Source: Prorocentrum cordatum (lineage: Eukaryota). Taken from it: DNA of 55,216 nucleotides. The stretch spans positions 62,001-117,216 of the forward strand of contig CAUYUJ010000174.1 in NCBI GenBank assembly GCA_963575745.1. Direction: 5' to 3'. The notes beneath the pieces were generated by a model, which was not told the DNA's origin, did not search any database, and worked only from the letters and a program-made list of their open reading frames with translations. Positions 1 to 17,855 of this stretch are shown here, one piece after another. The position numbers and the translations under genes were made by a program. The stretch's first letter is position 1; each line of letters starts with the position of its first letter.

Positions 1-199
1 TCCCTTACTATGGCGCACATCTCCTCCCTATTCGCACATTCGGATGTCGCAGCATGGCGTGGCATCACATGGCATAACATGGTGTTGAAGATTAACGCGT
101 ACCATGACATAGCATGGCGTGGCGACGCCCCATAGTGGGGGGGGGGGGGCTTCTGCGGCGCAAAAGATCAACGCATCGACAACGAACGTGTTTTTTGTA

Positions 200-790
200 T
201 AGCCCTACAGCCCCATAGCCACATAGCCCTATATCATTAGAGCCCTATAGACCCATAACCCAATAGCCTTATGGTCCTATGAATAGCCCAATAGCCCAAT
301 AGCCCGATAGCCTTATAGCCTTATAGCCTTATAGCCCAATAGCCCTATCGCCCTAGATCCAAATAGCTCTATAGCCCTATTGCCCTATAGCCCCTTAGCC
401 CTACAGCCCTAAAGCCCAATAGCCCTATAGCCACATAGCCCTATAGCCCTATAGCCCTCAAGCCCTATAGCCCAATAGCCCTACAGCCATATAGCCCTCT
501 ATCCCTGTAGCCCTGTAGCCCTATAACCCTATAGCCGTATGGCCATATAGCCCTATAGCCCTCTAGCCCTCTAGCTCTATATGCCTATAGCCTATAGCCC
601 TATAGCCCCATGGTCCTCCTATAGCCAAGAGTCCCAGAGCCCCATAGCCCTATAGACCTACAGCCCTATAGTCCCACAGCCCTATAACCCTATAGACCAA
701 TAGCCATGTGGCTCTATAGCCCTATAGTTCCACAGCCCTTGCGCCCCGTAGCCCCATCGCCTTATAGCCCAATAGCACTATAGCCCTAAA
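200..790. repeat. Degenerate (ATAGCCCT)n minisatellite; second tract at ~11510-11652
   Basis: Visible 8-9 nt period. Confidence 0.9.
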
Positions 791-842
791 AAGACTGTCA
801 TTCGGTCTTTTATCCGGTATCATGTTCATATTGTGCAACTGC

Positions 843-1062
843 GGAGGAGGGGGAGGAGGAGGAGGAGGAGGAGGAGGAGGAGGAGGAGAGGAGGAGGAGG
901 AGGAGGAGGAGGAGGAGGAGGAGGAGGAGGAGGAGGAGGAGGAGGATGAGGAGGTAGGGAGGAGAGGAGAGGAGGAGGGAGAGGGAGGGAGGGAGGAGGA
1001 GGGAGGAGGAGGAGGAGGAGGAGGAGAGGAGGAGGGAGGAGGAGGAGGAGGAGGAGGGAGGA
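843..1062. repeat. (GGA/TCC)n microsatellite, representative of many tracts (e.g. 4445-4722, 15820-16052, 18390-18815, 37558-39006)
   Basis: Direct reading. Confidence 0.97.
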
Positions 1063-1165
1063 GGGACGGGGGCGCCCCCCCCCCTCGCGCGACTCCGCGG
1101 TTCGCGCCGTCGACCGCGCCGGCGGCGGGGCCCGGACCCCGGGAGCGCCCCGCCGAGGCCCCCGC

Positions 1166-1228
1166 GCGGCTGCGGTGGCCCGTCATGGTCCGCAGCTTCC
1201 GGCACTGGGCCGCGTCCCAGATCTGGAC
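1166..1228 (-). CDS. FZR1: FZR1 exon ([21 protein letters not shown])
   Basis: AG|G acceptor at 1230-1229; phase-0 continuation of GTNKGE; WD40 motif. The GC donor at 1165 is inferred, so the 3' end is uncertain. Confidence 0.85.
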
Positions 1229-4200
1229 CTCCGGCACAAGAGGACACGCTGGAGGAGGAGGAGGAGGAGGAGGAGGAGCAGCAGGAGGAGGAGGAGGAGG
1301 AGGAGGAGGAGGAGGAGCAGGAGGAGGAGGAGGAGGAGCAGGAGCAGGAGGAGAAGGAGAAGGAGGAGGAGGAGGAGGAGGAGGAGGTGGCCTCGCTGCC
1401 CTGCGGCGGGCACAGGAGGGCACGCTGGCCGCAGGCGGGAGTGCATCCGAGGGGCTGACACCGCGTGGCGGCTCGCCCCTCTTCCTCGCCTGCCCCGTGG
1501 GGGCCCCGCCCGTGCGCTATCTGCACCAGGCTCCGCCGCGTCCCAGGCTGTGATGCCGTGCGCTGGCCTTGGGAGTGCGTTCGCTGTCACGTCAGCACGG
1601 CTCTCGGTAGGGCACAGGACTGCGGATGGCGAGCACGCGTGCCACATCCAGCGGGGGCGCTCTTTCATCGGGGGCGCGCAGACACGGATTAGCGATCCAT
1701 GGATTTGGCGCGCGGCCGCCTGATCCATGGATCGGGGGAGGTGCCCTCCGCAAAATGCGGCCGGTGCCGCCTCGCTCGGCGGCGGGAATCCGCGATTCCC
1801 CATGGAAACGGGACCCGTCGCTAATCCACGCCCCCTTGATCCATGTTTGCGATCGCCTGATCTCAGTAGTGCGCAGAAGGACACTCTGGTGCTGCAGGCC
1901 TCGGACGAAGGTTAGCGAGCACGCATGCCACGTCTATCGGTCAAGGCCCTCCCCTCCCCCCGATGTTCAAAGTTGGCGGTGGGCCTGGTGAGTTGCACTT
2001 CGACCGCAGTCTCCCCCGCGCGTGCCAACTTTGAGCTTGGGGGAGCGGGGGAAAGTCCGCTAATTGTTTCCCCCTACCGACTGTGCCGATGTTGGAGGCG
2101 CACGTCCGACGCGAGCATGTAGTACACAAATCTTCTGGCAAGTGTATCGTTTCCCGTGCGGCCTGGCCAGGATGCGCTCGCCACCGAGCTCATACTACAA
2201 GATTTCTGACCGTGCGCGTCGCCATTGTGAGCGTTCTTTTTATTCGGCGTTTCGGCATTGGGCGAAATGGGGGGGAGTGGGGGGGGGTCTGGCTCCGGAC
2301 CTCGGCTTAACGCGGCTGTTTGGGACCGTGCGTCCTCTGGGGGAGACCCCACCTTCTCGCCAGAAACAGCCGAGGATCTACTCCACGGAGGGGGGGGGGG
2401 AGAGGGGGGGTGCGAGGGCCCGCGCCGATCGGCAAAGCAATGAATCAGCGCTGGACAAACCTCCCTTTAGTAAACCTCCCCTTAGTGAAAACGACCTGGG
2501 GCCGAAATCGAAGGACCTGGACCCGCGAAAAGGACGGCCGCGACGCCCTCTCGCGAACCGAGAACGGCCAATTCCTCAATCGACGTGTCAGGGTAGGAGG
2601 TCTGTCCACCTCCGATTAATAAGCGTCGGGGGCGTCACCCCCGCCGACAGCCCCACATCGACCCCCGTCGCGGGCAGCCACCGCGCGCCGAAGGCGCTAC
2701 GACCCCCGTCGCGGCGCGACGACGAGGCGAGGCTGACCCCCGTCGGGGGGGGGTACCCCCCCGCGCTTACTGAGTAACCCAGAGTATGTATCCCGTTCCT
2801 AGACATGCCCGAGCAGGGCCCCGAGCTTTCCCCCTGCAGGTGCGCGGGCCAGAACTGTCGACCCTGCAGGGCCGACGCACTTACAGGTTGCATCAGCACG
2901 TACGTTTGGGCGGTGCCGACGCCGTGCCCGCGCCTGCGCTCGGGAACCTCTGCTCTCGACGCGTCGCGGCGGCGGCCCCGGCGACGCGCCACACGCCTCC
3001 TCCTCCTCCTCCTCCTCCTCCTCCTCCTCCTCCTCCTCCTCCTCCTCCTCCTCCCTCCTCCTCCTCTGCGAGCGGATGCTGAAGCAGCGCGCCACTCGGC
3101 TCCGCGGGACGGGCGGCGGGACAGGGCTCTCGGGACGTGGACCGGGCGCTCCCAAGTTCGAGATCGACGGGTCGGATCGGCGATCGAAACGAGGCGGATC
3201 TGAAGGGGCCCCGGGACACACAAAAAAATACACACAAAATAAATGATTCCCCATATTTTCCTATATGTTCTGGGTTTCTGTCTTCCCCCCCCACTTCCCA
3301 TACCTTCCCATATTTTCCGAGGAATCGAGGATTAAATGTGTCTGTGTGCTTTTTCCTCCCCTGAGGATCGGCGGAGCGGCGGAACTCGGCGGCCGCGTCG
3401 GGAGCAGTCGAGGCGGCGGACAAATCGGCAGGCCAGCATATGCCTCCCATGGGAACATGGGAATCTGAAGCGGAATCCGGAGTCGAACCGAAACGGAATC
3501 GGAGATCATCGAAACCGAACCGAATCGGAATCGAATCGAATCGGAATCGGAAATCATCGAAATCGGAGTCTAGAACGGAATCCGAAGTCGAATCGGATCG
3601 GAATTGGAAACCATTGAGATCGAATCGGATCGACTCGGAGGACTCGAAACGAGCCCCAACGCGGACGCCTGGAGACAGGGCCGCGTGCGGCGTGCCCCGC
3701 CGGAGCGTGGTGGGCCAGCGTCGGCGGCGCCGCACGCCGCGCAGGAGTTCCCGACCGCAGCAGCTCGCACGGCCTCCTCTTAAAGGAAGACACAGCGGAG
3801 GCCAGTGCACAACAGACCTTCCACAAGAAACCCAACCCTGAGACCCCAGGTCGCCCACTGGTCTTTGTCGTGGACACGTCGCGCTCTCCACCGCAAAACC
3901 ACCGAGACCAAAGCATCCCAGCGCACCCTGGAGGCGAGTAGAGTGCTTCTCGGCGTGGGCCCCCGATGTAAGCCCTGCCTGCATCAACACACGCGTTCCT
4001 CGGAGGTCCGCCCCGAGTCCTTGAATCGGCCCCAGGCCCCCGACGTCGTGACTTTGTCGCGCCGACCCCCAATCGGCGGCGAGCGAAGGGGGTGCGGGGG
4101 AAGTGAGAAGGAGAAGGCCTTCTCGGAAGGCGGCGGGACGACTCAGAAGCCCTCGCGCCTTCCGAGAAGCTTTTGCCTGTCTTCCTGGAAGGATTGGTCG

Positions 4201-4500
4201 GGGATCCTCTGACCCGGGTCAATCCAGACCCGGGTCAGTCAGGCCTTACAGAATCCTGCAGGATCCTGCAAGATCCTGCACACAAACCCGGGTCAATGCG
4301 AAGGATCCTGCAGGATCCCGCGGGACCCTGCACCCAGACCCGGGTCAATGCGACCCTGGCCCTGCAGGATCCTGCAAGATCGGGCGCTCTGGCTGACCCC
4401 CGTTTGCATGGACCCCCGTCTCAAATCTCCCGTCAGGGCAGTTTTCCTCCTCCTCCTCCTCCTCCTCCTCCTCCTCCTCCTCCTCCTCCTCCTCCTCCTC

Positions 4501-4531
<31 letters not shown>

Positions 4532-7500
4532 TCCTCTCTCCCTCCTCCTCCTCCTCCTCCTCCTCCTCCTCCTCCTCCTCCTCTCCTCCTCCTCCTCCTC
4601 CTCCTCCTCCTCCTCCTCCTCCTCCTCCTCCCTCCTCCTCCTCCTCCCTCCTCCTCCTCCTCCTCCTCCCTCCTCCTCCTCCTCCTCCCTCCTCTTCCTC
4701 CTCCTCCCTCCTCCTCCTCCTCCGTCTCTTGAGCCCCGACTTGAGAAACCTCTCAGAAGGCCGGGGGACCTCCGAGCCTTCTGAGGAGGCCCGCCCCTTC
4801 TCACCTCCCCCCCCCCCGCTCGCCGCCGACCCAGGAGAGGTCCGGACCCCTCTCCCCCGGACCGGCCCCTCGTCCCGACTAATTCTAGGTCGGGCCTGTG
4901 CCCCCACAGGGGGACTCTGGGCGAAGAGTGCGAAGAATCAAGAGTAGAGTCGGGGACTGGTCTCAAGGAGCCCAAAAGAAGGAACGAGGCCCCTGTTTTC
5001 CACAAGCTGAACGTCGACTTCCGATCGCAAACAGAAGGAAAGCCTGAGGCAGGCTGCGAAACACCTAAGGAACGCGGAGCCCCTCCCCAACGAAAAGGGT
5101 TCCTACTTCAGGGCCCCGACTGTACACCAACAATATTCAAACATAGACAGAGATACTCAACGAATGCTCCACAGACTTTGAAGGTCGCTGGGGGGGCAGC
5201 GTTGCTTCCAGGGCCAGATCCCGTGCGCTCGGCGGGCGTGCTGGATCGGTCAGCAGCAATCCTTGCAGCCGCCCTTCGCGAGAAGCTCTGATTTACGGTC
5301 TGCTCTAGCCGGCGATTGGGCTGCTCGTGCTTGATCATGGCCTCTCTCCCGCCGCCCCAGAAACACACATCGCGTTTTGCTGCCCCTCGGCGAGCGTCGA
5401 CCCAGACTATCGTTTGACTATGTTTGGATATTCCTCCTGCAGAGGGACAGGCCCTTTGTGGACCCCGGAAGCGGCAGGGCCGATTTTTCACCATTTCCAA
5501 TAACATGTCCCTTGAAAATGGAAACGGCAAAAAAGACGGCGACTGGAAACGGCAAAAAAACGGCTCCAGGATTGGAGCCGGAACCGGTCAAAAAACGGCG
5601 ACGGCACCGGTTAAAAAACGGTGTCGGAACCGGCCCAAAAAACGGCAAAACGGAAACGGTAAAAAAACGGCCCTGCCATTACGGAGCCGAGGCCCGGCGC
5701 GGGGGCCTCCGCGGCGGCGGGAGAAGCGGCCGCGCTGCCTCCGCAGCGCGAGGGGGGGCCTGGGGCGCCGAGCCGCCCCCCCGCCAGCCACTGGCGCGCA
5801 CGGAGCGAGGAGGAGGAGGAGGAGGAGGAGGAGGAGGAGCGCCAGGAGGAGGAGGAGGAGGAGGAGGAGGAGGAGGAGGAGCGCCAGGAGGAGGAGGAGG
5901 AGGAGGAGGAGGGAGGAGGAGAGGGGAGAGGGGGAGGAGGAGGGGGAGGAGGAGGAGGAGGAGGAGGAGGAGCGCCAGCCTTCGGTCGGGCGTGTCCCCC
6001 CACATGGGGATTGCGGACGATATTATCATTAGGGGATCGAAGAATGACACAGACATAAAAACTCGGAGGTCCGCGCGGATTTCTCGGATCGGCGCCAGAG
6101 GCGCCGCCAGGGGGGTCCGACTGAGCCGGATTCGCCCAGATGAGGCCGGTGATCGGCCGCAAAAATGCCAGCGCCGATACAGAATTTAACCTCCCAGGAG
6201 TTGCATCCTAGCCTAAGGCTATGGCAAAACTAGAGGACCGCATCGGAGAACCAAAACTAGAGGACCGCATCGGAGAACCCCCTGTGAGAACGAGCTACGG
6301 CAACCAGGGAAATGAGGCACCAACTGGCCTTTGCTGTTCGAGTTCGCAGGCATCTCCGCAACTTGGGAGGGGAAACGAACCTACCATTAGCTCGGAATTT
6401 GCAGCGGGGGTGCCATTTCCTGTGCAAGATCCGGTTGTGTCTGCGACAAGGGCATCCTTCGGTGCCCGGCTTTCGGGGGGCGCGCGGGAGTGGGATCACC
6501 CCCTGGCATGCAGTGGCTACGGTTAGGTCGGGCATGTCCTCCGAAGGGCGGATTCCCGAAGAGAAACTAAGACAAAAAAAACCGTACCAAAAAATCAAAA
6601 AATGGCCAAACATAGTCGAGACATCGTCCCACCACTATTTGTTGACTATTTCTGAATACCCCTCCTATAGAAGAGGCGTGACCGACTTGAGGCTACCGGC
6701 GCATCGCGTGCGGCGATCGGCGAGCCGCGCGCGCGGGATGCCGCCCTGGCCCAGGCCCGTGCTCCAGGACCCGCGGGACCCGAGAGCGGATCCTGGACAC
6801 CTGGGACTGCTGAACAAAGGCGGGGCCGCCTCCTCCCTCCTCCCTCCTCCTCCCTCTTCCCTCTCCTCCTCCTCCTCCTCCTCCTCCTCCTCCTCCTCCT
6901 CCTCCTCCTCTCCTCCTCCTCACCCTCGATCCTCCTCCTCCTCTCCTCCTCCTCCTCCTCCTCCTCCTCCTCCTCCTCCTCCTCCTCCTCCCCCTCCTCC
7001 TCCTCCTCCGCCGTACCCCGTGCCGGCCCGCTGGGACGGGCGCCCCTCCTCCCCAGGTGGCCCGTCTGCGCGCGGCCTGCCGCGGGCCCGGCAGGAGGCG
7101 GTGTCAGGGTGGGGAGCGTTGGCCGGGCCCTCTCCGTAGGAGGGCGCCAACTATACACCAACACCGATCCTGGCCAGGACCACCCTGGGCCCAGGATCGG
7201 TGTATACGCCCTCCTGCCTGGGGCAGGAAGGCACATACACCAATCCTGGGCGCAGAATTGGCCTGGCCAAGATCGGTGTAGGTGTATAGTTGGTGCCCTC
7301 CGATCTCCGCTCCAGCCTTGGGAGGGGAAGCGGGGCGGAGCGTTATGTTCCAGTCTACTGCAGCCTGAACCACCAGAAGGAGTCTCGAGCACCAAGAGAG
7401 TGCCGAAACTCGAGGGTTGTCGCGCGTCGGGCCCTGGGGGGCACTCGTTGGACACTGTTGCGACACTGTTTCGATACTTTCCCAGGTGCTCGAAATTGAT

Positions 7501-10500
7501 TCTGGGATGTGATCCTTAAGTACAATGAGGGCACCAGAAGCGGAAAGGGGGCTACCTGGACACAGCCGGAGGTCCAGGGAGGAGGTGAGCATTTATCTTG
7601 CCGCCCAGGCCTCCCCCTTGTTCGTGCCCACGGCCAGGTGGGTGCCGCGCTGGATCCAGCTGACCGAAGTGACCATGTCGTCGGCGCCAAGGTCGCACAG
7701 CTTGTTCACCCGTCCAGTGTGGCCACTCCACAGGTAGACCTCGCTGTGCAGCCCGACGGACAACACGTTCGATGACGACCAGTCTACCTTGGAGGCGCGC
7801 ATAACCCACACATCCTCGCGTCGTGACACAAATCACGGCCGAAAGCTCTTGGCGTTTTCCGGGCTCCAGGGGGCCTCACCAGGCTCCAGGACCGTCAAAG
7901 AACGACTCCAGGGAAGAGCGCTGAGAAATACCCATTGGAAAACCAGTCTCAGGGATGGGGTAGAGACCTCGGAGGTCCGCGTCGTCAGTGGCTCTGGGAA
8001 GAAGGCTGGGTGAAGGAGGCCGCCTTCTGACCATACTCACACGGTGCAGGGACGCGTGGCTCCCCAGGGGCCGAGGGGAGAAGGAGGAGGAGGAGGAGGG
8101 GGAGGAGGAGGAGGAGGAGGAGGAGGAGGAGGAGGACGAGGAGGAGGAGGGAGGAGAACGACCTTCTGAGAAGGCCCCTGCCGAGGCCCCCGCCCTCGCC
8201 GTCGTCCTTTTTTGCGTGCCGACCTTGGTTCACACTGGTCCTCCTCCTCCTCCTCCTCCTCCTCCTCCACCTCCTCCTCCTCCTCCTCCTCCTCCTCCTC
8301 CTCCTCCTCCTCCTGCTCCTCCTCATCCCCCTGCGACCAGGTTCAGGTAGAAGTCGTCCTGAAGCTGGGGCGCGTCCAGCACCTTGAAGGGCACCTTGGC
8401 GATCTTGCGGAGCGCCTTGCGCGGGGTGCTCAGGAGGTCCTGGCTCTGGAAGGGGACCGGGGACATGGACCGGAGGGTTCCAGAGGGGGGTTCTGAGGAG
8501 GGGGGGTTCCAGAGAGCCCCCCCTGGCCAGGGACCTCGGAACCTCGTCAAGATAGGGGGTGCGAAGCCCCTGGGGGGCCCCTGCCGGAAAACCCCCTCCC
8601 CAAAAATCGGCATTGGACAAACCTCCCTTTGGCAAACCTCCCCTTAGCGAAAACGGCCTGGGACCGAAACCAGCGGACCTGGACCCGCAAAAGTGACGGC
8701 CGCGACGCCCCTTCGCGAACCGAAAAGGGCCAAGCCGCCAATCGACGTGTCAGGGTAGGAGGTCTGCCCACCCCCGAAGCAAAAACCCTGTGGAACCCTC
8801 CGGATGGAGAACGCGTCGCTCTGCGAGAGCTGCGGCTCGGACCGGAACCGGAACAGGTTCTTGCCCTCCGGAGTCCTCGCCCGGCCCTCGCCGCCTGGCG
8901 GTGCGCCAAGAAGGCTGGGATGGGGCATGTCCTCCTACGGGCGCTTTGTGGGGCACGGAAACGGCAGGGCCGTTTTTTCACCGTTTCCAAAAAAATGCCC
9001 CTTGAAAACGGAAACGGCAAAAAAACGGCGACCGGAAACGGCAAAAAAACGGCTCCAGGATCGGAACCGGAGCCGGAACCGGTCAAAAAACGGCGACGGG
9101 ACCGGTAAAAAAACGGCGTCAGAACCGGCAAAAAAACGGCAAAACGGAACCGGTAAAAAGACGGCCCTGCCGTTTCCAGGGCCCACTAAGTACAGGCGGC
9201 TTCCGAAAGAGAACTCAAAACATCGTCAAAGAATTGGCAGACATGGCTAGACGAGCGCGTTCCACAACTTGCAGAGTACTCCAGATTTCGTAATAAAAGG
9301 GAGGGGGTCTGGACCCTCCAAGACAGGCCATTTCAGACCTCCCCCGTGGGAAAACCATCCAAAACATCGTCCCCAGACCCCCCAGGCCCTCCAAGATAGG
9401 CTGGAAGAGACTCCCCCGAAATGAGACCCCCCTCCCTTTATTACGAAATCTGGAGTATCTACTCGCAAGTGGCCTGGATCCGACGCGGGGGCGATAAATT
9501 ACATCGAAGCGGACATGTGTTTTTGTTTTCGGACACTTGCGAGCATGCACTTTGCGAGTAGTGGAGCGCGCTCGGTGAATAGCCCAAAGAGCACGACTAC
9601 TCGTCCCCAGGCCATTTTGACAATGCTGGGAGGCTCCTCCTGTAGAGAGAGACATGCCCGACTTCTCAGCCTGGCGGTGCGCCAAAAGGGGGCTCGGCGA
9701 TCGAGGTTTGCATTACCAAAGCCCTGCTCACGGCTCCACCTCGCGAGGGGTCAGGGGGGGCTCGGACACAAGCCGGCGTCGAGCTAGGGGGGAAAATGAG
9801 AGAAGGCCCTCTCAGGAGGCGGCGGGGCTTCTCGGAAGCCATCAGGCCTTCTTTCGGAGGTCGGAAAGGGGCGTGGCGTAATGGGGTATGGTGCCAATCG
9901 TGAACATGGCGATGCTATATACGATAGATAACATCGCCTGATTCCCCTTTTAAATAACAGTAGCACCACACCCCTTTACACCAAACCCCTTTCCTACTTC
10001 CAAACTTTTGAGAGGTCTTCTGCGTTTTCCGGGAAGGCTTGGAAAACTTCTGAGACGGCCGGGTGCTTCCGAGCCTTCCGAGAAGGCCCGCCCCCCCCCA
10101 CTTCCCTTCCAGGTCTGGCCGCCGAAATACACACAAGTCCAAGGATTCCCTGCATGATGCTAGATGTTCTCGATGTTCGTCTTCCCCTCCACTTCCCATA
10201 TCTTCCGCACTTTCCTAGGCATCGGCGCCGAGAGAGTCTCTGGAGGCAGAGCTCCTGTCCATGCACCGTCCTGTTGGCGTCCAGAGCTGGAAGGCTACAG
10301 AGGAGGCATGGACGAAGCTCCGACCGCCGCGGGGACGCGAGGCGGGGGGGGGGCTATCCAGGAAGCGGACAGGCAGGGGGCCGCTCGGATGCGAAGAGGC
10401 CTCTGATTGAGGGGGCCGCTCGGCTGCCGCAGGAGGAGGCCTCCGAGCCTCCGATGCGGGGGCCGCCTGTGAACGGGCGACGAACGGTAGAACATAATTA

Positions 10501-13500
10501 TCCCAGTGCGACCCTACCTAGGAGTTGGAGCATCTAGGAAAACATAATCTACATATACACCGACAGCTACATTCACATCTACACCTGCATCTACATCTAC
10601 ATCAACATCAACAGCGAGACTCACATCTACATCTACACCTACATATACACCTACACCTACAAATACATCTACATATACATATACATCTACACCTACATCC
10701 ACATCTACACCTACACCTACATCTACATCGACATCTACAACTTCGCATTGGTGTTGCTTTTGCTTTGCGTTGCCTTGCCTGTGCTAATTTTGCTGTTGCT
10801 GTTGATGTTGCTTTGCGTTTGCTGTTGTCGGTGATTGATGTTGTGTTTGATGTGCCTGCTATGCTCTGCTATGCTATGATATGATATGATATGCTGAGCT
10901 ATGCTATGATATGCTATGCTATGATATGCTTGGCCATGCTATGCTATGTTATGCTGTGCTAATGCTGCGCTGCGCTATGCTGCGCTGCGCTAAGCTAAGC
11001 TAAGGCGAGCTAAGATATGATAAGCTAAGTTAAGCTAAGCCAGGCTAGGCTAAGCCAAGCTAAGCTAAACAAAGCTAAGCCAGGCTAAGTCAAGCTAAGC
11101 TAAGCTAGGCTAGGCTAAGCTAAGCTAAGCTGAGCTAAGTTAAGCTAGGCTAAGCTAGGTTAGGTTAAGCTAAGCTAAGCTAAGCTAGGCTAAGCTAAGA
11201 TGAGATAAGCAACGCTAAGCTAAGGGGACGTAACTGGGGGAACCGCGGGGCGGATACTGGGGGAACCGCCCGGGGCGGTGTGCACTGCCCGGCCCCTTTA
11301 AGAAAGAGAGTAAGAACCCTTCTAGGCAGAGCCTAGGTAGGGAATAAACTTCTTCGCTGTCGGGGGCGCCTGTCCCTGGGCGGCTGGGAAGTCCCCCAAT
11401 CAGAGCCTGCCTCGGCAGGGGTCCTAGCGGATTCATATGGCTAGGTGAGTTGAGCCGCCGATGTCGGTGGCCAGCCCGGGTGCCCGGGTGCCCGGGTGCC
11501 CGGGTGCTCTATCGCCCTTTAGCCCTATAGCCCTATAGCCCTATATAGTCTATGGCCCTATAGCCCTATAGCCCTATAGCTCTATAGCCCTATAGCCATG
11601 TAGCCCTACAGCCCTACAGCCCTATAGCCCTGTAGCTCCTTAACCCTATAGCTCAAAAAAAGATCATGATTGGGGTGTTTCTCTGGTGCCAGTGATACCC
11701 TGACGGTGGCACATTAGGGGTATGTATAAACTTTCCAGCTGCCTGGGGGGCTGGCGTCCCCGACTGCGGAAAAAAGTCGACTGTACATGGAGAGCGGGGG
11801 GGGGGCGTCCAAGAGGTGGGGGCACGCTCTGCGTTACAAGGAGGCCGCCCCCCACACCGCCCTGCCCATGGCCACAACCGCACCCAAGGCGCCTCCTAGC
11901 ATCTCTCTGGCCACCTCCCCGCGCCGCGTCCACCGGCCGGTGGCCACTCTGGGGGCGATTCAGGGCCATCTTGGAGGCTATCTTGGCCGCTCTTGGGTCC
12001 GTCTGAGGAGCCTCTTGTGCCGTCATGGGGCCGTCTTGGAAGCCTCTTGGGCGATCTTGGGGGCCCCCGGGGCCGTCGGAGGGCCGAAAAGAAGGCAGCG
12101 CGCGAAAGTCCTTTTCAAAGGCAGAGTTAACCAGCCTCGAACGTATCCCTATCCCCAAGATGGGCGAGCAAAAAGCGAGGACAATCCTAGGGATAGGCCC
12201 TCAGGAACTGAGGGAATCCTTAAGATCGGCATCGAGGTGAGGTGATGCCAAACATAGGGATAGGGATATGTTTCAAATTGGTAACGAGCGGCGCCCCCCA
12301 TCGGAGCCCCCACGCAGGGCCCGCGGCGCCCGCGAGCGCCCCCCCCGACGGGACCCCTCGCGCGGCCCACCCTGGCCGCCGCAGCCGCGAGGGTGCCCCC
12401 CGTGGGCGCCCCGTGGGCGCCCCGCCCCGTGGGCGCCCCGCACCGTGGGCGCGCCTCGTGGGCGCCTCGTAGGCGCACCGTGGGCACGCCTCGTGGGCGC
12501 CTCGTGGGCGCCCCGTGGGCGCCCCGTGGGCGCCTCGTGGGCGCCTCGTGGGCGCCCCGCCCCGTGGGCGCCCCTCGTGGGCGCCTCGTGGGCGCCCCGT
12601 GGGCGCCCCGCGAGCCGCCCTCCGGGCCGGAGCCCTCGCGGGCTCCATGCTGGCCAGGTTCCCGAGCCCTCGGTCGGGCACATCCCCTCCTGCGGGCGCA
12701 GCCTCGAAGGAAATCAAAGAGCATAGTCGAAGCACAAGGGATCCCAAAGTGGCCAGACGGGGGGCACGAGAAAAAGTTGGTCCCCTGGCTGCGTTTTTTA
12801 CTGTTCGTGGCTCCTCCTCCTCCTCCTCCTGCATCGGGGGCGGCCAAGAGGGGGGCGACCAAGGGGGGGGGGAGCCGCAAATCACGGCCGGCGGCGCGTG
12901 CGCGGCCCCCGGGCCCATGGGGGGGGCCAGGGACGCAATGAAATAGGAGGAGGCGCCATGAAATCTGGGGAGATCTCGTGGCCCACGCCATGGCATCCCC
13001 CCCCCCTGGTCATCACCCCCCCTCTGGCCGCCCCCCGAGCCCCCCGACTGCGACGAGGGACCTGCCCGGCTGCGCCCGAGCCACGGCCCGCCGCGGCCAC
13101 GGGGGGAGGCCCCCCCGGGGAGAGGCCGAGCGCTCACGCGTCCACGAGCACATCGCCGCGGCTCCCGCCGCCCCGGGGGTCTTGCAGGCCTGGAGATCGA
13201 CACCAACACCAACAGGTGTGCATCTATAGAGATTGCAGGCCAGGAGATTGACTGAGATTGCGTTCTGAGAGATTCTATTAGGCGTTTCTGAGATTGCAAC
13301 ACCAACACCAACACCACCCGGGGTCTTGCAGGCCTAGAGATTGACACCAACACTAGCACCAATAGATATCGGCGGTGTGCATCCACCGAGGGAGGAAGAT
13401 CCTCGATCTCGGTGATGGTGGTGATGTTCTGGCTTCCAAGGTGGCCGAGATATTGCCACCAACACCGAAACCGAGGATCGTCTTCCCCCTGTGGAGGCAA

Positions 13501-15678
13501 CCCCCTGTGTTGGTGTTGGTGCCCATTTCTAGGCCTCCAAGGGTCGGCCTCCTCCGGGGCCGGCTTTGAAAGCGCCGCGTGCAGCCGAGCTGGGGCTTCG
13601 TAAACAGGGGTTTGGCTAAACGGGGGCCTAGGCTGTTCCACATACCCCCGTTTACAGTCGGGGCGTTGACCTAAGGAACCCTAAATAAGGAACGGGGCCC
13701 CTTTCTCCCATAAATTACACTTCGATCTCCCATGGAAAACCTCATGAAAACCTGAGGCAAGCTGCAGAACAATCAAGGAACACCGAGCCCCTCCTCAACG
13801 AGAAGGGTTCCTTCGTCAGCGCCCCGACTGCAGGGGTTTGGCTAACAGGGGGCTTTGGCTGTTCCACATTACCCCCGTTGACTGTGCCCCCGTCTGTGGC
13901 GCCCCGGGCCGCCTCAACGAGGAGGAGGAGGAGCACTGTAAAGCAACTAAGGAACACGGAGCCCCTCCCCAACAAAAAGGGTTCCTTCTTCGGGGCCCCG
14001 ACTGACGTCGGGCGCGTCCCCCTACAGTCGGATTTGGGGCTGGGAATGCAAAATACTTACAAAAATGCCCCCAAATAGTCAACACATCTATTCCAGAAAT
14101 AGTCCCCAGACTATTGCTTTATTCTCTTGACGATTCCTCCTGTAGAGGGACAGGCCCGACTGAAAGCCAAGGCTACCGTCGGCCCGGGTCAGAAGGAAGC
14201 GCGATGAGGATTCAGGGGGCCTTGGAAGGCCACGTCGACATTCTGCGAGCGGGGCGCGGCCAGCGGGAGCGGCCAAGGATGGACCGAGGAGGCAAGGATG
14301 CCAGGGTACCCCTTGGGAAAGATGCCCATCCCATCTACGCGGGTTCACTGCACGGTGGGGGCAGTCGATGGGGATTTTTTCTTATATTAGGCAGCATAGA
14401 GGACCACTTCGTGGAGTATTCACCTGCTCGTGACGAGTACGTGTACTACACTCGAGAGCTGACAGGTCGCTAGTGCAGTCGATGAGGGGAACCATTGGAC
14501 AAGGAAGCCGGGGCATGGCAGCCGGTGGAGCTGCGATCGTGCAGTGGCCAGGGGCCCCACCGCCGCCCCGGGCAGCTCCCCCAGGGTCTGCAGCCGCCCG
14601 AGCACACGCCTTGAGCCACGCCCCCACCGCAGCCAGTGCGCTTGGCCGAGGGAGAATTCACGGGCGAAGAACGGTATAAAATGAACTGTTTCGCTGTCGG
14701 GGGCGCCTGTCCCTGGGCGGCTGGAAAGTTTATACCCCTACGGTGGCGCCGTAGGGGTATAAACTTTCCAGCCGCCCAGGGACAGGCGCCCCCGACAGCG
14801 AAACAGTTCATTTTATACCGTTCTTCGCCCGTTTAAAGAAAGAAACCACTGCACAAACGCAAACGTTTGGAGGTCCGCGCGGATCTCGCGGATCTGGGCT
14901 AGAACCCCCTCCTTGGCGCGCGGGGCGCGCCGGGGGTGGCGCCGGAGGCGCCGCCAGGGTCAGGTCGGACATGTCCCCCTACAGGCGGGTTTTGTGTGCA
15001 AATTGAAAATCATCATAGGATACCCAACAACAAACGAAACATGATAGAAAAATCGTCACTCGACTATTTTTTTACTATTTTTGAGTCTTCCTCCTGTAGA
15101 AGGACAGGCCCGACTTCACGCCAGGGGGCCCAGCGCAGATCCAAGAAATCCGCGCGGAGCGTCGAAAATGCATGTTCAGCTTAGCTGCCCCGATGCGCAA
15201 CACGCAACACGTAGCGTATTGATACGGAGCTCAGCTCGTAGACTGAACATGGACGTTTTGAACACGGACGTCTTGAACACGGCACGTGCCACGTGTTACG
15301 TTTCACAACGTGCGTATCAGAGCAGCTAAGACGTTGATGCTTATGGCGTTTTTCTTCTTCGAGGACAGGACCCATCGCGTCGCGCTTGGCGACCCCTCCC
15401 AGCTGCGTTGCACTGGCGGGGGGGGGGTCGAACCCGGGGGGGGACCCGCCGCCTCCCGTGCCAGGGCCCTCCCCCCCTTGCCTCCTTGAGTTGCAAGGGG
15501 GGGGGGAAGGGGTTCGAAGCAGGCCTCCCCCCCTCGTCGCCCGACGTGGGGGGGGGCCCCTGGGGAGAAGCCGAGGACGTGCCGCAGACCTTTCCTCGAC
15601 CCCTGGCCGCCCTGGTCGGGCTGCGCCGGGGGGCGAGCCCCCAGGAGCTCGCTGCGCAGGAGCTGCGAGTAGATCGAC
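1166..15678 (-). CDS. FZR1: Partial multi-exon gene: Cdh1/fizzy-related APC/C co-activator (WD40); 3' part lies left of the window, 5' exons not found
   Basis: Hand-spliced peptide [13 protein letters not shown]...[14 protein letters not shown]...[124 protein letters not shown] follows the Cdh1 order of motifs. YSxLLxxELLG, SQxLLxx[13 protein letters not shown] and VxKLCDL are Cdh1/CCS52-type rather than Cdc20-type. Confidence 0.9.
2452..2608 (+). mobile_element. ~157-bp MITE-like family (core TIR TGGACAAACCTCC...GGAGGTCTGTCCA); copies at 8614-8770, 17641-17798, partial 16401-16515
   Basis: Four dispersed alignable copies with inverted termini and no ORF. Confidence 0.8.
3201..3364 (+). mobile_element. 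~163-bp element (TGAAGGG...GGGACACACAAA...CCTGA) with 5-bp TSD; copies at 16236-16398, 21677-21839, partial ~10125-10215
   Basis: Flanks GGATC/GGATC, AAATT/AAATT and GATTG/GATGG. Confidence 0.8.
6523..6690. mobile_element. MITE family with ~29-bp TIR (TNANGTCGGGCATGTCCCCCTACAGG) and 8-bp TSD; copies at 14003-14164, 14960-15118, 19214-19406, ~8921-9666; isolated ends at ~4885, ~5435, ~5985, ~39405
   Basis: Paired inverted ends. TSDs: GGCTACGG/GGCTACCG, CGCCAGGG (14952-14959/15119-15126), GACGAGCA (19206-19213/19407-19414). Confidence 0.85.
7140..7300. repeat. Imperfect ~160-bp palindrome (foldback/MITE-like)
   Basis: The left arm GAGGGCGCCAACTATACACCAACACCGATCCTGGCCAGG... is the reverse complement of the right arm with scattered mismatches. 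Confidence 0.85.
7611..7787 (-). CDS. FZR1: FZR1 exon ([13 protein letters not shown]...LAVGTNKGE), WD40 repeats 1-2
   Basis: 177 nt, 59 codons; AG|G acceptor at 7789-7788; GC donor at 7610-7609; strong Cdh1 motif match. Confidence 0.95.
8338..8470 (-). CDS. FZR1: FZR1 exon ([44 protein letters not shown]); 5' boundary 8470 (non-canonical) or 8445 (AG)
   Basis: Contains the fizzy signature KVLDAPxLxDDFYLNL; GT donor at 8337-8336; the 8338-8445 core is secure. Confidence 0.92.
8801..8894 (-). CDS. FZR1: FZR1 exon ([32 protein letters not shown]); 3' boundary 8801 or 8797
   Basis: AG|G acceptor at 8896-8895; TPExxNLFRF resembles the Cdh1/CCS52 N-terminal TPE..(N)I/LFxF/Y segment; in frame with the next exon under both splice models. 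Confidence 0.75.
8944..9190 (+). mobile_element. ~250-bp MITE family (TIR CTTTGTGGGCCCCGGAAACGGCAGGGCCG; internal AAAAAACGGC repeats) with 8-bp TSD; copies at 16549-16798 (minus) and ~5454-5690
   Basis: TSDs TACGGGCG/TACAGGCG and GTCGGGGC/GTCAGGGC. Confidence 0.85.
9671..9739 (-). CDS. FZR1: Probable FZR1 exon ([23 protein letters not shown])
   Basis: AG|G acceptor and GC donor; phases match neighbours; its 3' end is duplicated at the next acceptor. No conserved motif. Confidence 0.55.
10498..11347. mobile_element. TIR-bounded insert (CCCTACCTAGG 10512-10522 / CCTAGGTAGGG 11332-11342) filled with (TACAYC)n, (ATGCT)n and (GCTAA)n satellites
   Basis: Perfect 11-bp inverted repeat; removal rejoins a copy of the 14660 palindrome arm. 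Confidence 0.65.
12390..12612. repeat. (GTGGGCGCCYC)n 11-bp minisatellite
   Basis: Direct reading. Confidence 0.9.
14660..14832. repeat. Perfect 173-bp palindrome (84-bp arms, 5-nt spacer TGGCG)
   Basis: 14660-14743 is the exact reverse complement of 14749-14832. Confidence 0.95.
15372..15412 (-). CDS. FZR1: Candidate FZR1 micro-exon ([13 protein letters not shown])
   Basis: AG acceptor and GT donor; phase 2 in and phase 1 out fit the chain. Supported by phase consistency only. Confidence 0.35.
15525..15559 (-). CDS. FZR1: Candidate FZR1 micro-exon ([11 protein letters not shown])
   Basis: TTCTCCCCAG|G acceptor and AG|GC donor; phase 0 in, phase 2 out. Supported by phase consistency only. 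Confidence 0.35.
15639..15678 (-). CDS. FZR1: FZR1 exon ([13 protein letters not shown])
   Basis: Matches the conserved Cdh1 N-terminal YSxLLxxELLG motif; CAG|G acceptor and GC donor. Confidence 0.78.
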
Positions 15679-17413
15679 CTGGGGGGTGGCCGGAAGGGCC
15701 GAGCCCGAGCCCGAGACCGAGCGCCGAGCCCGAGCCCGAAGCAGAGCGCGAGGCCGAGCCCGAGCCCGAAGCCTGGCGCGAGCCCGAGCCCGAGCCCGAG
15801 CTCGAGCACAGGCGTGAGCCCCCCCCTCCTCCTCCTCCTCCTCCTCCTCCCTCCCTCCTCCTCCTCCTCCCCTCCTCCTCCTCCTCCTCCTCCCTCCTCC
15901 TCCTCCTCCTCCTCCCTCCTCCTCCTCCTCCTCCTCCTCCTCCTCCTCCTCCTCCTCCTCTCCTCCTCCTCCTCCTCCTCCTCCTCCTCCTCCTCCCCCT
16001 CCTCCTCCTCCTCCTCCTCCTCCTCCTCCTCCTCCTCCTCCTCCTCCTCCTCCCGCCCGAGCCCGAGCACGAGCCCGAAGGGGGGGCGGGGCAGGCCCAC
16101 GTCGCGGTGCCGTGGACCGCGGTGGCCTCTCACAGCGCGCGGACCGCCCGACCTAAAAACGGCCGCGGCTCTCCGACGGCCCAAACCGCTCGATTTGTCG
16201 GCCGAGTCGGGGCCATTGGCAGCGTTCGGGGATTGTGAAGGGGAACTGGGACACACAAATAAATACACACCAATGAAAATATCCCCCATATTTTCCCATA
16301 TTTTCTGGGTTTTTGTCTTCCCTCCCACTTCCCATATTTTCCCATATTTTCTGGGAAATCCACGATTGATTGTGTCTGTGTGTTTCTTTCCCTCCTGAGA
16401 TGGACAGACCCCCCTTTAGTAAGACGTGGTTTAGTGAAAGCGACCCGAGGCCCACACCTGGCGGGCGCAAGCCTGGAAAGTGACGGCCATGGCGCCCTCT
16501 CGAGAACCGAAAACAGCCCGAACCGCCCGATGTCGGCCGAGTCGGGGCCTTCGTGGGCCCTGGAAACGACAGGGCCGTTTTGTTGCCGGTTCCGTTTTGC
16601 CGTTTTTTGTTTGCCAGTTCCGACGCCTTTTTGTTACCGGTCCCGTCGCCGTTTTTTGGCCGGTTCCGGCTCCGGTTCCAGTCCTGGAACAGTTTTTTTG
16701 CCGTTTCCGGTCGCCGTTTTTTTGCCGTTTCCATTTTCAAGGGACATTTTTGGGGAAACGGTGAAAAAACGGCCCTGCCGTTTCCGGGGCCCACAAAGGT
16801 CAGGGCCACTGGCAACGTTAAACCTTGAACGCCCGCGTCGAAGTCGCCGCCGCGTCAACGCGGCGCTAATCTGCCAGAATCGAGCCGGCCGTTCGCAGCT
16901 GGTCCTCCCGGCGCCTGGGGATGCCCAGGAGCGCACATGCCATCGAGGAGTGTGCCTAGCGGCGGGAGCCCAAGCCAACTGCACGCGGCAGTCTTCGCAG
17001 CCCCCCAGGCCAAAAGAAGCTCCTCCCCGAGGCCGACAAGGTACGCTCCTCTCCGAAATCGAGGCCGAGAAGAGGCGCTCAATATCAGCCCTGCACCGAC
17101 GGACGCGCCATCCTTCTCCTCACCCCAACCAGGCGGCTCAGGAGCGGGACCCGTGGCGGGAAGAACAGGAAAGGGGGACCCTGACCCCCTCGCGGTGTGA
17201 CAAAAAATACGGCGGGAGGTTGCGTCCAAGAGGGGGGGATGCAAATCATGGCCGGCGGAATGTGCGCGGCCCAGGGAGGGGACCAGGGACGTAATGGAAT
17301 AAGAAGAGGCGCTGTGAAATCTGGGGAAATATCATGGCCCGCGCCATGATATCCACCCCCCCCTGGTCATCACCCCCCTCCCCAGACCCCCGACGTAATG
17401 ATTTTTTCATTAC

Positions 17414-17855
17414 GTCGACCCCCAAAGGTCCCGACCCTTTCCCCATGACCGGCTTTGCATCCTGAGTCGTTTTTTGACGCCCCCGAGGCCCGGTGAGGGC
17501 CCCCGGAGGCCGAAAATTAGGAAAAACCTCCCGTCATGATGTTTTTTATTACTCGAGGGGTCTGGGTCTTTGCCGCGCCCGAATATTTTCGGCCTGCGGG
17601 GTCCCTCACCGGGCCCCGGGACCGTCAAACAACTCGGGGATGGACAGACCCCCTTTTAGTAAAACATGGTTTAGTGAAAACGACCTGAGGCCCAAACCTG
17701 GCGGGCGCAAGCCTGGAAAATGACGGCCGCGGCGTCCTCTCGAGAACCGAAAACGGACAATTTACTAATCGACGTGTCACTGTTGGGGGTTCTGCCCACC
17801 CGCGAACAACGACTCGGGATGAAAAGCCGGTCCGGGGACCTCTGGGGGGCCGACG
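17414..17855. mobile_element. Degenerate foldback element with a MITE inserted in its right arm
   Basis: 17414-17500 is the reverse complement of 17600-17633 plus 17805-17855 once the 17641-17798 MITE is removed. Confidence 0.65.

What the first reader, a model, noticed from the sequence alone, without database searches (positions are those of the whole stretch)
8446..8803. FZR1 intron is a TIR insert with no AG at its edge: GA-CG splice or loss of a conserved SP site
Seen: 8474-8799 has TIRs (AGGGTTCCAGAGGG / CCCTGTGGAACCCT, 13/14) and CCGG on both sides. Exact removal of 330 nt gives [17 protein letters not shown], matching the conserved Cdh1 SLSPV...SQxLL segment, but the best splice register is GA...CG|G (8800-8471). 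The canonical alternative GT(8796)-AG(8446) is also in frame but deletes SMSPVPFQ, including an SP putative CDK site. Read-through hits a stop at 8644. Either outcome is notable: hairpin-guided non-canonical splicing, or TE-driven loss of a regulatory site in a cell-cycle gene.
Basis: partly seen in the sequence, partly recalled or inferred. Interest (0 to 1): 0.7.

Follow-up and report, generated by a model that had tools for sequence, protein, structure and literature searches.

The report
Exon transposon cleanly missing from mRNA
A small transposon sits inside a coding exon of a dinoflagellate cell-cycle gene (Cdh1/FZR), yet mature transcripts lack it to the exact base with no normal splice signals, so either the RNA is cut out in an unusual hairpin-bounded way or the expressed gene copy never carried the insert.

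Summary
The inverted repeat is real but was read slightly wrong. The arms are 18 nt (8470-8487 / 8786-8803, 17 of 18 paired). The palindromic CCGG belongs to the arms. The true target-site duplication is the 5-nt TCCAT (minus strand) at 8804-8808 and 8465-8469.

RNA contigs from 4 runs of 4 studies, one a polyA metatranscriptome, join 8464 to 8804. They skip 339 nt, which is the 334-nt element plus one duplication copy. None of the six equivalent registers gives GT/GC/GA..AG, while the gene's other three introns are GC-AG|G, GT-AG|G and GC-AG|G.

The joined message has one open frame and lines up without a gap with dinoflagellate FZR1 orthologues (F-S-[L/M]-S-P-V), so the SP site is kept.

The anatomy matches the non-canonical introner elements of Amoebophrya (inverted repeat 8-20 nt, direct repeat 3-5 nt). 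It does not match the GH..AG introners known from core dinoflagellates.

One question stays open. Either the RNA is removed (about 0.5), or the transcripts come from a DNA copy without the insert (about 0.4). No DNA run could be laid.

The parts
8470..8803 (.). 334-nt MITE-like element (no long ORF, GC 0.65) inserted in a coding exon
   Evidence: bounds; GC 0.65; longest open stretch 102 codons, on the + strand. The RNA joint removes it exactly.
8470..8487 (.). Terminal inverted repeat, arm nearest exon B (CCGGAGGGTTCCAGAGGG on +)
   Evidence: pair I1: 18 nt, 94% complementary to 8786-8803.
8786..8803 (.). Terminal inverted repeat, arm nearest exon A
   Evidence: pair I1. Duplex of the two arms as RNA is -34.4 kcal/mol.
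8804..8808 (-). Target-site duplication copy 1 (TCCAT on the minus strand)
   Evidence: Equals the 5 letters that fit on either side of the RNA joint ('both' = 5).
8465..8469 (-). Target-site duplication copy 2 (TCCAT on the minus strand)
8465..8803 (-). Stretch absent from mature RNA (339 nt; may be shifted by up to +5)
   Evidence: table 5: joint 8464->8804 in X8, X9, X1, X3 (contig depth 13.4, 97.9, 104.1, 10.4; side 86); the registers read CC-AT, TC-CA, AT-CC, CA-TC, CC-GT, TC-GG.
8644..8646 (-). In-frame stop (TAA) met if the element is read through from exon A
8605..8777 (.). Core of the element shared with two other repeat copies in the window (2443-2615 at 85.5%; 17641-17806 at 73%)
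   Evidence: The other copies do not carry the same terminal repeats.
8809..8894 (-). Exon A of the FZR gene (plus one duplication copy)
   Evidence: piece 8804-8889 with 0 mismatches. Upper bound taken from the GC-AG|G register.
8338..8464 (-). Exon B (M-S-P-V ... D-D-F-Y-L-N-L)
   Evidence: piece 8336-8464 with 0 mismatches. Lower bound taken from the GT-AG|G register.
7611..7787 (-). Exon C (start of the WD40 part)
   Evidence: piece 7610-7785; 58-aa translation, 319 hits, nearly all carrying WD40/CDC20-type Pfam families.
15611..15678 (-). Upstream exon (the contig runs on beyond 15678 onto nothing in 1-20000)
   Evidence: piece 15606-15678 and loose end at 15678.
1161..1228 (-). Downstream exon D (the contig runs on beyond 1161)
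   Evidence: piece 1161-1227 and loose end at 1161.
8895..15610 (-). Canonical dinoflagellate intron, GC-AG|G, 6716 nt
   Evidence: joint 8889->15606 in 4 of 4 runs. register 5.
7788..8337 (-). Intron GT-AG|G, 550 nt (inferred; no single contig joins across it)
   Evidence: pieces end at 8336 and 7785. sequence. The frame is continuous.
1229..7610 (-). Canonical dinoflagellate intron, GC-AG|G, 6382 nt
   Evidence: joint 1227->7610 in 4 of 4 runs. register 1.

Best explanation
A 334-nt non-autonomous DNA transposon (18-nt terminal inverted repeats, 5-nt target-site duplication TCCAT) inserted into a once-continuous coding exon of a dinoflagellate Cdh1/FZR gene, inside the codons for the conserved F-S-[L/M]-S-P-V segment. 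The pre-mRNA is then relieved of exactly the element plus one duplication copy (339 nt), which restores the ancestral reading frame.

No GT/GC/GA..AG pair exists in any register. I therefore propose that removal works like the non-canonical 'introner elements' of Amoebophrya: the two arms pair into a stem of about -34 kcal/mol that brings the two TCCAT copies together at its base, and cutting and joining happen there.

Shown: the anatomy; the exact 339-nt absence from spliced mRNA contigs; the lack of canonical sites; the canonical nature of the gene's other introns; the restored frame, collinear with orthologues; the predicted stem.

Inferred: that the DNA template of those transcripts carries the element; that the stem guides removal; which machinery does it.
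For: 1; in 4 of 4 laid runs (4 studies; X8 is polyA RNA-Seq) one contig joins 8464->8804. The same contig also skips the 6716-nt GC-AG|G intron, so it is spliced mRNA. Exon pieces 15606-15678, 8804-8889, 8336-8464 and 7610-7785 match the window with 0 mismatches.
2; 0 of 6 registers are GT/GC/GA..AG. The other three introns each have such a register followed by G.
3; the joint equals the inverted-repeat element plus the 5-nt direct repeat.
4; the joined 531 nt has one open frame; it lines up without a gap with orthologues (F-S-L-S-P-V in L001-L006 and L010, and in P0151, P0154, P0165).
5; a Symbiodiniaceae-like genomic contig (L061) has this segment uninterrupted within one exon, so the insert is lineage-specific.
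6; the unconstrained RNA fold closes with the arms (z = -2.89; 0 of 100 shuffles fold as well).
7. X1-X19 (19 of the 22 listed runs; the 22 come from 7 studies) hold 0.28 of the sampled words, about what the exons give (391 of 1401 bases). A held element would add about 0.22.
8. (PMC7789003, passages): Amoebophrya non-canonical introns have inverted repeats of 8-20 nt, direct repeats of 3-5 nt overlapping the boundaries, no conserved dinucleotides and predicted hairpins.
9; among the 120 listed of 319 hits, no protein is identical to exon C. The best is a P. cordatum protein at 83%. So no annotated insert-free twin was seen. This is weak evidence, because the database is incomplete.
Against: No DNA run was laid, so it is not shown that the template of these transcripts contains the element. 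table 5b, on the joined form in DNA runs, was not given.

No contig carrying the unspliced element was seen. That is equally expected if the expressed DNA lacks it, and contigs cannot show absence.

Only this one element in the 55-kb window has the inverted-repeat-plus-direct-repeat anatomy (1 of 84 pairs), so nothing here shows a general mechanism.

All transposon-made introns described in core dinoflagellates recruit GH..AG from the duplication or the element (passages of bioRxiv 10.1101/2020.10.14.339549). The repeated intron boundaries of Crypthecodinium always contain GG or AGG (passages of PMC5032977).

A diverged paralogue or orthologue exists in P. cordatum (P0151, 83% over exon C). 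It could buffer a knocked-out copy.

The other two copies of the element's core lack its terminal repeats, so the family and its copy number are not established.
Confidence: 0.5

Rival explanations
1. Insertion polymorphism or twin copy. The element is a recent, disruptive insertion present in the assembled DNA copy only. All transcripts seen come from an insert-free allele (other strains) or an insert-free, otherwise identical paralogue. Nothing is removed at the RNA level at this site.
For: Element plus one duplication copy missing is exactly what an empty site looks like. The duplication is perfect and the arms differ at 1 of 18 positions, as in a young insertion. No run among X1-X19 holds the element's words. 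No unspliced contig was seen. The TCCAT duplication supplies no G or AG, so by the rules known for core dinoflagellate introners this insertion would not make an intron. Dinoflagellate genomes are rich in duplicated genes and active non-autonomous transposons (passages of PMC10666404). A related FZR protein exists in P. cordatum.
Against: The window's exons match the RNA of 4 studies with 0 mismatches over 464 nt, so any twin must be very recent. If the twin is in the same genome, the filled copy should also be transcribed, yet no element words are held in 19 runs. This is weak evidence, because contigs drop rare forms and nonsense-mediated decay could lower them. If the difference is between strains, none of the studies holding the exons may have used the assembly's strain, which I cannot check. 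No protein identical to exon C from an annotated twin was found (weak).
Confidence: 0.4
2. Reverse-transcription artefact. The mRNA keeps the element, and reverse transcriptase jumps between the two TCCAT copies across the stable stem, giving cDNA without it.
For: Direct repeats flanking a strong stem (-34.4 kcal/mol) are the classic setting for template switching (established knowledge; not tested here).
Against: The jump would have to be near-complete in 4 studies. Random-primed reads from the 298-nt interior would still appear, yet X1-X19 hold only the exon-sized share of words. A retained element puts a stop at 8646-8644, so the gene would be dead anyway.
Confidence: 0.04
3. The intron is GT(8796)..AG(8446), 351 nt, which deletes S-M-S-P-V-P-F-Q.
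Against: It was not seen in any of the 4 laid runs. All show 8464->8804. It would delete a segment conserved in all 25 translated relatives.
Confidence: 0.01
4. The first reader's 330-nt removal at GA(8800)..CG(8471), treating CCGG as the duplication.
For: In frame. CCGG does occur at both ends.
Against: The RNA skips 339 nt, not 330. CCGG is palindromic and part of the 18-nt arms. The product would carry three extra residues that no relative has.
Confidence: 0.01

Closest known systems
Introner elements / non-canonical introns of Amoebophrya A25 and A120 (Farhat et al. 2021, PMC7789003; passages read)
   Same: Inverted repeat of 8-20 nt at both ends (18 here). Direct repeat of 3-5 nt overlapping the boundaries (5 here). 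No conserved splice dinucleotides. Predicted hairpin that joins the exon ends. MITE-like with no transposase. The boundary cannot be placed within the repeat.
   Different: There it is genome-wide (over 60% of introns), shown with DNA and RNA of the same strains, in a parasitic early-branching lineage where no U1 snRNA was detected. Here there is one locus in a Prorocentrum-like core dinoflagellate whose other introns are ordinary GC/GT-AG|G, and the DNA state of the expressed copy is unverified.
Introner-like elements of Symbiodinium and Polarella glacialis (Roy et al., bioRxiv 10.1101/2020.10.14.339549; passages read)
   Same: DNA-transposon signature (inverted repeats plus a 4-8 nt duplication, including a 5-nt class). 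The intron equals the element plus one duplication copy. The coding sequence is restored.
   Different: Those elements always gain a GH 5' site and an AG 3' site from the duplication (GHNN, AGGH, NAGGH, NNAGG) or from the element. Here the duplication is TCCAT and no register has GH..AG.
Introner elements counted in Prorocentrum cordatum (Dougan et al. 2023, PMC10666404; passages and two supplementary files searched)
   Same: Same search definition as Farhat et al. (inverted repeats of 8-20 nt and direct repeats of 3-5 nt within 30 bases of intron ends). Same genome style as the window (GC 59.7%, mean intron 4.7 kb, 51% GC donors). Found in 2.4% of introns.
   Different: They were sought only inside annotated introns, predicted with tools set to GT/GC/GA donors. 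An intron without such sites would not have been in that set.
Nonconventional introns of euglenids (as reviewed in PMC11282704; passages read)
   Same: Non-canonical borders, end-to-end pairing that brings the intron ends together, duplication-like repeats at the junctions, suspected MITE origin.
   Different: The euglenid pairing is short (typically CAG/CTG at +4..+6 and -8..-6), not an 18-nt terminal repeat. Their removal follows conventional splicing and yields circular RNA. Neither point was tested here.
MITE-derived non-canonical introns of Fritillaria borealis (Henriet et al. 2019, as reviewed in PMC11282704)
   Same: Transposon insertions neutralised by removal at non-GT-AG borders.
   Different: Fritillaria has preferred borders (AG-AC, AG-AT) read by an altered U2 spliceosome. 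No such dinucleotides occur here.

Membership tests
Amoebophrya-type introner element (non-canonical intron with inverted and direct repeats) | Inverted repeat of 8-20 nt between the 5' and 3' ends of the intron | tested here: met
   18 nt, 17 of 18 paired.
Amoebophrya-type introner element (non-canonical intron with inverted and direct repeats) | Direct repeat of 3-5 nt overlapping the exon/intron boundaries | tested here: met
   TCCAT at 8804-8808 and 8465-8469. It equals the 5 ambiguous letters of the joint.
Amoebophrya-type introner element (non-canonical intron with inverted and direct repeats) | Splice dinucleotides other than the canonical ones | tested here: met
   0 of 6 registers are GT/GC/GA..AG.
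Amoebophrya-type introner element (non-canonical intron with inverted and direct repeats) | Removal from RNA transcribed from DNA that carries the element (same strain) | tested here: inconclusive
   RNA contigs of 4 studies lack it. No DNA run could be laid, and the strain of the runs is unknown.
Amoebophrya-type introner element (non-canonical intron with inverted and direct repeats) | Repeated family that occupies many intron sites | tested here: inconclusive
   The core has 2 partial relatives in the window, without the same arms. No genome is held.
Core-dinoflagellate introner-like element (Symbiodinium / Polarella type) | Inverted repeats plus a target-site duplication, with the intron equal to the element plus one duplication copy | tested here: met
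Core-dinoflagellate introner-like element (Symbiodinium / Polarella type) | 5' GH and 3' AG splice sites supplied by the duplication and/or the element end | tested here: not met
   The duplication TCCAT has no G. No GH..AG register exists.
MITE (non-autonomous terminal-inverted-repeat DNA transposon) | Terminal inverted repeats, flanking duplication, small size, no transposase gene | tested here: met
   334 nt.. No Pfam scan of the element's frames was run.
MITE (non-autonomous terminal-inverted-repeat DNA transposon) | Many copies with the same termini at different sites | not testable with these tools
   No genome held. There is no second copy with these arms in the window.
U12-type (AT-AC) intron | 5' consensus RTATCCTY and an AC or AG 3' end | tested here: not met
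   The only AT-starting register begins ATCCGG and ends CC.
Euglenid nonconventional intron | Short conserved pairing near the ends; excised as circular RNA after conventional splicing | not tested
   Features known only from the review passages. Circular RNA cannot be seen in contigs.
Cdh1 / Fizzy-related (FZR) APC/C co-activator (the host gene) | WD40 propeller preceded by the conserved ...S-P-V...[20 protein letters not shown] segment | tested here: met
   translation. One search named hits (FZR1, FIZZY-RELATED 2, cdc20-like protein 1); 611 hits at E of 0.001 or less. The C-box and the C-terminal IR tail lie outside the exons seen and were not tested.

The most novel reading that the evidence does not exclude
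Free-living core dinoflagellates (here a Prorocentrum-like genome) have, beside their GH..AG spliceosomal system, an Amoebophrya-like ability to cut out transposons bounded by terminal inverted repeats and a target-site duplication from pre-mRNA, whatever the boundary dinucleotides, guided by the stem the repeats form. Exonic MITE insertions would then be harmless. This class of intron would have been missed because annotation pipelines accept only GT/GC/GA donors.
Probability: 0.45. Interest if true: 0.8.

Novelty: new member of a known kind. Interest (0 to 1): 0.55.

Why it matters
If removal is at the RNA level, the hairpin-bounded, signal-free intron type known from the parasitic Amoebophrya also works in a bloom-forming photosynthetic dinoflagellate. 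That would push its origin deeper in the lineage. It would also help explain how these transposon-rich genomes tolerate insertions into essential exons.

It would further mean that gene models built with GT/GC/GA-only splice rules lose genes such as this FZR. No protein identical to its exon C was found among annotated proteins.

The locus gives a one-tube test: genomic PCR against RT-PCR across 8336-8889.

If instead the insert is a private disruptive insertion, the finding is ordinary: a MITE knock-out of one FZR copy.

Tried and rejected
no whole genome is held for the window, so family copy number and a twin copy could not be sought.

exon B (45 aa) against the 5.8-billion protein set with lengths 'longer' gave 85 candidates and none at E of 0.001 or less. 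This is a limit of the word index, because one search found 611.

the read-through ORF (exon A plus element, 94 aa), sought as a predicted protein in other data sets, gave 7 candidates and none significant. This is uninformative.

It was repeated with a 50-aa stretch.

no earlier findings for this genome, this sequence or these words.

no Rfam family anywhere in the window.

none of the 61 metagenome loci is the same species (best 89% over 45 aa), and none matched the element. The metagenome scan therefore could not show a filled or an empty site.

Lack of contig cover over 8470-8803: in X8 and X3 the bin depths equal what exon A alone gives, and X9 and X1 show a small unexplained excess in bin 8672-9338. 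I treat this as no evidence either way.

Rejected readings: a U12-type intron, and a bulge-helix-bulge motif at the stem base (the two flanks are identical rather than complementary, and one search shows no pairing of the flanks).

Literature searches, (38 papers held at least 3 of 4 terms, 20 listed; 44 papers, 15 listed): the listings showed no report of non-GH..AG transposon introns in core dinoflagellates. I read passages only of the papers cited, and two supplementary files of PMC10666404. Its supplementary tables S1 and S2 were not among the files held.
Full report
**What is in the sequence**

On the minus strand, a reading frame runs through 8894-8804. It encodes a peptide ending in ...D-A-F-S, then enters a G+C-rich insert and stops at TAA 8646-8644.

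The insert is bounded by an inverted repeat of 18 nt, with arms at 8470-8487 and 8786-8803, 94% complementary and 298 nt apart.

Immediately outside the arms lies a perfect 5-nt direct repeat, TCCAT on the minus strand, at 8804-8808 and 8465-8469.

I scanned the window for inverted-repeat pairs with arms of 12 nt or more, 60-2500 nt apart.
- The window gave 84 pairs, against 26-42 in 10 Markov shuffles.
- It gave 19 pairs with arms of 16 nt or more, against 0-7 per shuffle.
- Only one of the 84 pairs has a flanking direct repeat of 4 nt or more, and it is this one. Two of the 10 shuffles each gave one such pair.

The element is 334 nt and 65% G+C, with no long frame of its own. Its core (8605-8777) is 85.5% identical to 2443-2615 and 73% identical to 17641-17806, but those copies lack its arms. 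No Rfam family matches anywhere in the window.

**What the RNA shows**

In one search, 19 of the 22 listed runs (X1-X19; the 22 come from 7 studies) each hold 0.28 of the sampled words of 7550-8950. That is about the exon share (391 of 1401 bases). No run holds half of the words, which a retained element would require.

I laid four runs from four studies on 1-20000. X8 is polyA RNA-Seq of a marine metatranscriptome. X9, X1 and X3 are guessed to be RNA.

In 4 of 4 runs a single contig covers 15606-15678, 8804-8889 and 8336-8464 with 0 mismatches.
- It joins 8889->15606, skipping 6716 nt.
- It joins 8464->8804, skipping 339 nt, with 5 letters that fit on either side, a side of 86, and contig depths of 13.4, 97.9, 104.1 and 10.4.

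A second contig in each run joins 1227->7610, skipping 6382 nt.

I wrote out every permitted register.
- The 6716-nt intron reads GC..AG|G.
- The 6382-nt intron reads GC..AG|G.
- The 550-nt intron between 8338 and 7787 reads GT..AG|G. This one is inferred, because no single contig crosses it.
- The 339-nt skip reads CC-AT, TC-CA, AT-CC, CA-TC, CC-GT or TC-GG. None is GT/GC/GA..AG, and none fits a U12 intron.

The 339 nt are exactly the 334-nt element plus one TCCAT, and the 5 ambiguous letters are the duplication itself.

**What the product is**

Joining the five exon pieces by coordinates gives 531 nt with a single open frame. The best named relatives of its exon C are as follows (319 hits, 120 listed; 5 fetched).
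- An unnamed Prorocentrum cordatum protein (P0151), 83% identical.
- FIZZY-RELATED 2 of Durusdinium trenchii.
- FZR1 of Symbiodinium natans.

Exon B alone finds 611 relatives at E of 0.001 or less (8 fetched).

I translated 25 of the 61 metagenome loci that encode relatives. In 25 of 25 the frame runs uninterrupted through the site. The seven closest (L001-L006 and L010, 71-89% identical) read F-S-L-S-P-V, where the window's message reads F-S-M-S-P-V.

The GT-AG product would delete the conserved segment. The SP motif is therefore kept. That this serine is a CDK site in human FZR1 is my recollection and comes from no call.

L061 is a 63-kb genomic contig with a Symbiodiniaceae-like sequence. 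It carries this segment inside one exon, preceded by AG|G and followed by a GC donor. The interruption in the window is therefore a lineage-specific insertion into a formerly continuous exon, not an old intron position.

**Which organism**

Three features fit a core dinoflagellate and resemble the published Prorocentrum cordatum genome, which has 59.7% GC, a mean intron of 4.7 kb, 51% GC donors and 80% AGG acceptors (passages of PMC10666404).
- GC of 0.55-0.66 across the window.
- Introns of several kb with GC donors and G after the AG.
- The named protein hits.

I did not try to identify the record.

**How it most likely works**

Two explanations fit nearly all the data.

Explanation A, odds about 0.5: the element is transcribed and then removed from the RNA as a non-canonical intron. 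Its arms pair at -34.4 kcal/mol for the arms alone. An unconstrained fold of 8445-8825 closes with exactly these arms (z = -2.89; 0 of 100 shuffles fold as well). This places the two TCCAT copies side by side.

This is the anatomy that Farhat et al. describe for Amoebophrya introner elements: inverted repeats of 8-20 nt, direct repeats of 3-5 nt overlapping the boundaries, no conserved dinucleotides and predicted hairpins (passages). Related cases are the euglenid nonconventional introns and the Fritillaria MITE introns (passages of the review PMC11282704).

Explanation B, odds about 0.4: the element is a disruptive insertion in the assembled copy only, and every transcript seen comes from an empty allele or an identical twin gene. 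An empty site looks exactly like 'element plus one duplication copy removed'.

Points against B:
- The window's exons match the RNA of four studies with 0 mismatches over 464 nt.
- No element words are held in the 19 runs X1-X19.
- No protein identical to exon C appears among annotated proteins. This is weak, since the database also lacks the protein of the contigs I laid.

Points against A:
- No DNA run was laid, and table 5b was not given.
- There is only one such element in 55 kb.
- Every transposon-made intron so far described in Symbiodinium and Polarella takes GH and AG from its duplication or its end.
- Crypthecodinium boundary repeats always contain GG or AGG.
- The P. cordatum count of introner elements (2.4% of introns) was made only within introns predicted under GT/GC/GA rules, so it neither includes nor excludes this type.
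- A related FZR protein in P. cordatum could buffer a knock-out.

A reverse-transcriptase jump across the stem (odds about 0.04) would need near-complete efficiency in four studies. It would also leave interior reads, which are not held.

**Comparison and novelty**

The element works like, and structurally matches, an Amoebophrya-type introner element. It fails the defining splice-site feature of the core-dinoflagellate introner-like elements.

I file it as a possible new member of the Amoebophrya kind in a Prorocentrum-like genome. This depends on one untested point: that the DNA template carries the element.

My two literature searches (listings only beyond the papers cited) showed no report of such introns in core dinoflagellates.

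**Verdict**

Interest is 0.55. It would be high if genomic PCR from the RNA-source culture shows only the filled site, and low if an empty site exists.

Noticed in passing
window 8940-9195, 16545-16800, 5440-5700: A second MITE-like family of about 220-250 nt has long terminal inverted repeats (core GGAAACGGCAGGGCCGTTTTT, extending to about 30 nt) and an interior of A-run/CGG units. Three copies all lie in introns of the FZR gene, and the copy at 16545-16800 has its interior in the opposite orientation.
   Followed up: partly
window 17641-17806 and 2443-2615: These are copies of the repeat core shared with the exon element. RNA contigs of all four runs were laid on 17656-17805 at 95-99% likeness, with depth up to 447 and fixed differences at 17735 and 17763. 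Close relatives of this repeat are therefore present in transcripts from other loci. The copy near 17.6 kb is nested in longer imperfect inverted repeats (17380/17895 and 17447/17832).
   Followed up: partly
window 7785 / 8336 (junction of exons B and C): In all four runs the contigs break at this junction. The exon-C contig runs 21 nt further and the exon-B contig 4-9 nt further, overlapping by about k-1. This points to a constant branch in the assembly graph, such as an alternative form or a second related transcript. There is no such break at the element's joint.
   Followed up: no
window 7139-7301, 9277-9457, 19218-19402: Further short palindromic elements have arms of 31-32, 21 (perfect) and 28-36 nt. 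The window has 19 inverted-repeat pairs with arms of 16 nt or more, against 0-7 per shuffle.
   Followed up: no
window 2900-3100, 4450-4700, 5800-6000, 6850-7000, 8050-8335: Long (GGA)n/(CCT)n-type triplet runs fill the introns and give spurious long open frames on both strands.
   Followed up: no
window 7611-7784 (exon C): No protein identical to this exon appears among the 120 listed of 319 hits. The nearest is a partial P. cordatum protein at 83% (P0151). The gene may therefore be unannotated or mis-modelled, possibly because its transcript alignment contains a non-consensus intron.
   Followed up: partly
L061 (63-kb metagenome contig), locus 1630-1790: This Symbiodiniaceae-like genomic FZR exon starts at AG|GAGGAT just before E-D-A-F-S-L-S-P-V and ends with a GC donor after ...P-F-K. 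Intron positions therefore differ from the window's gene.
   Followed up: partly
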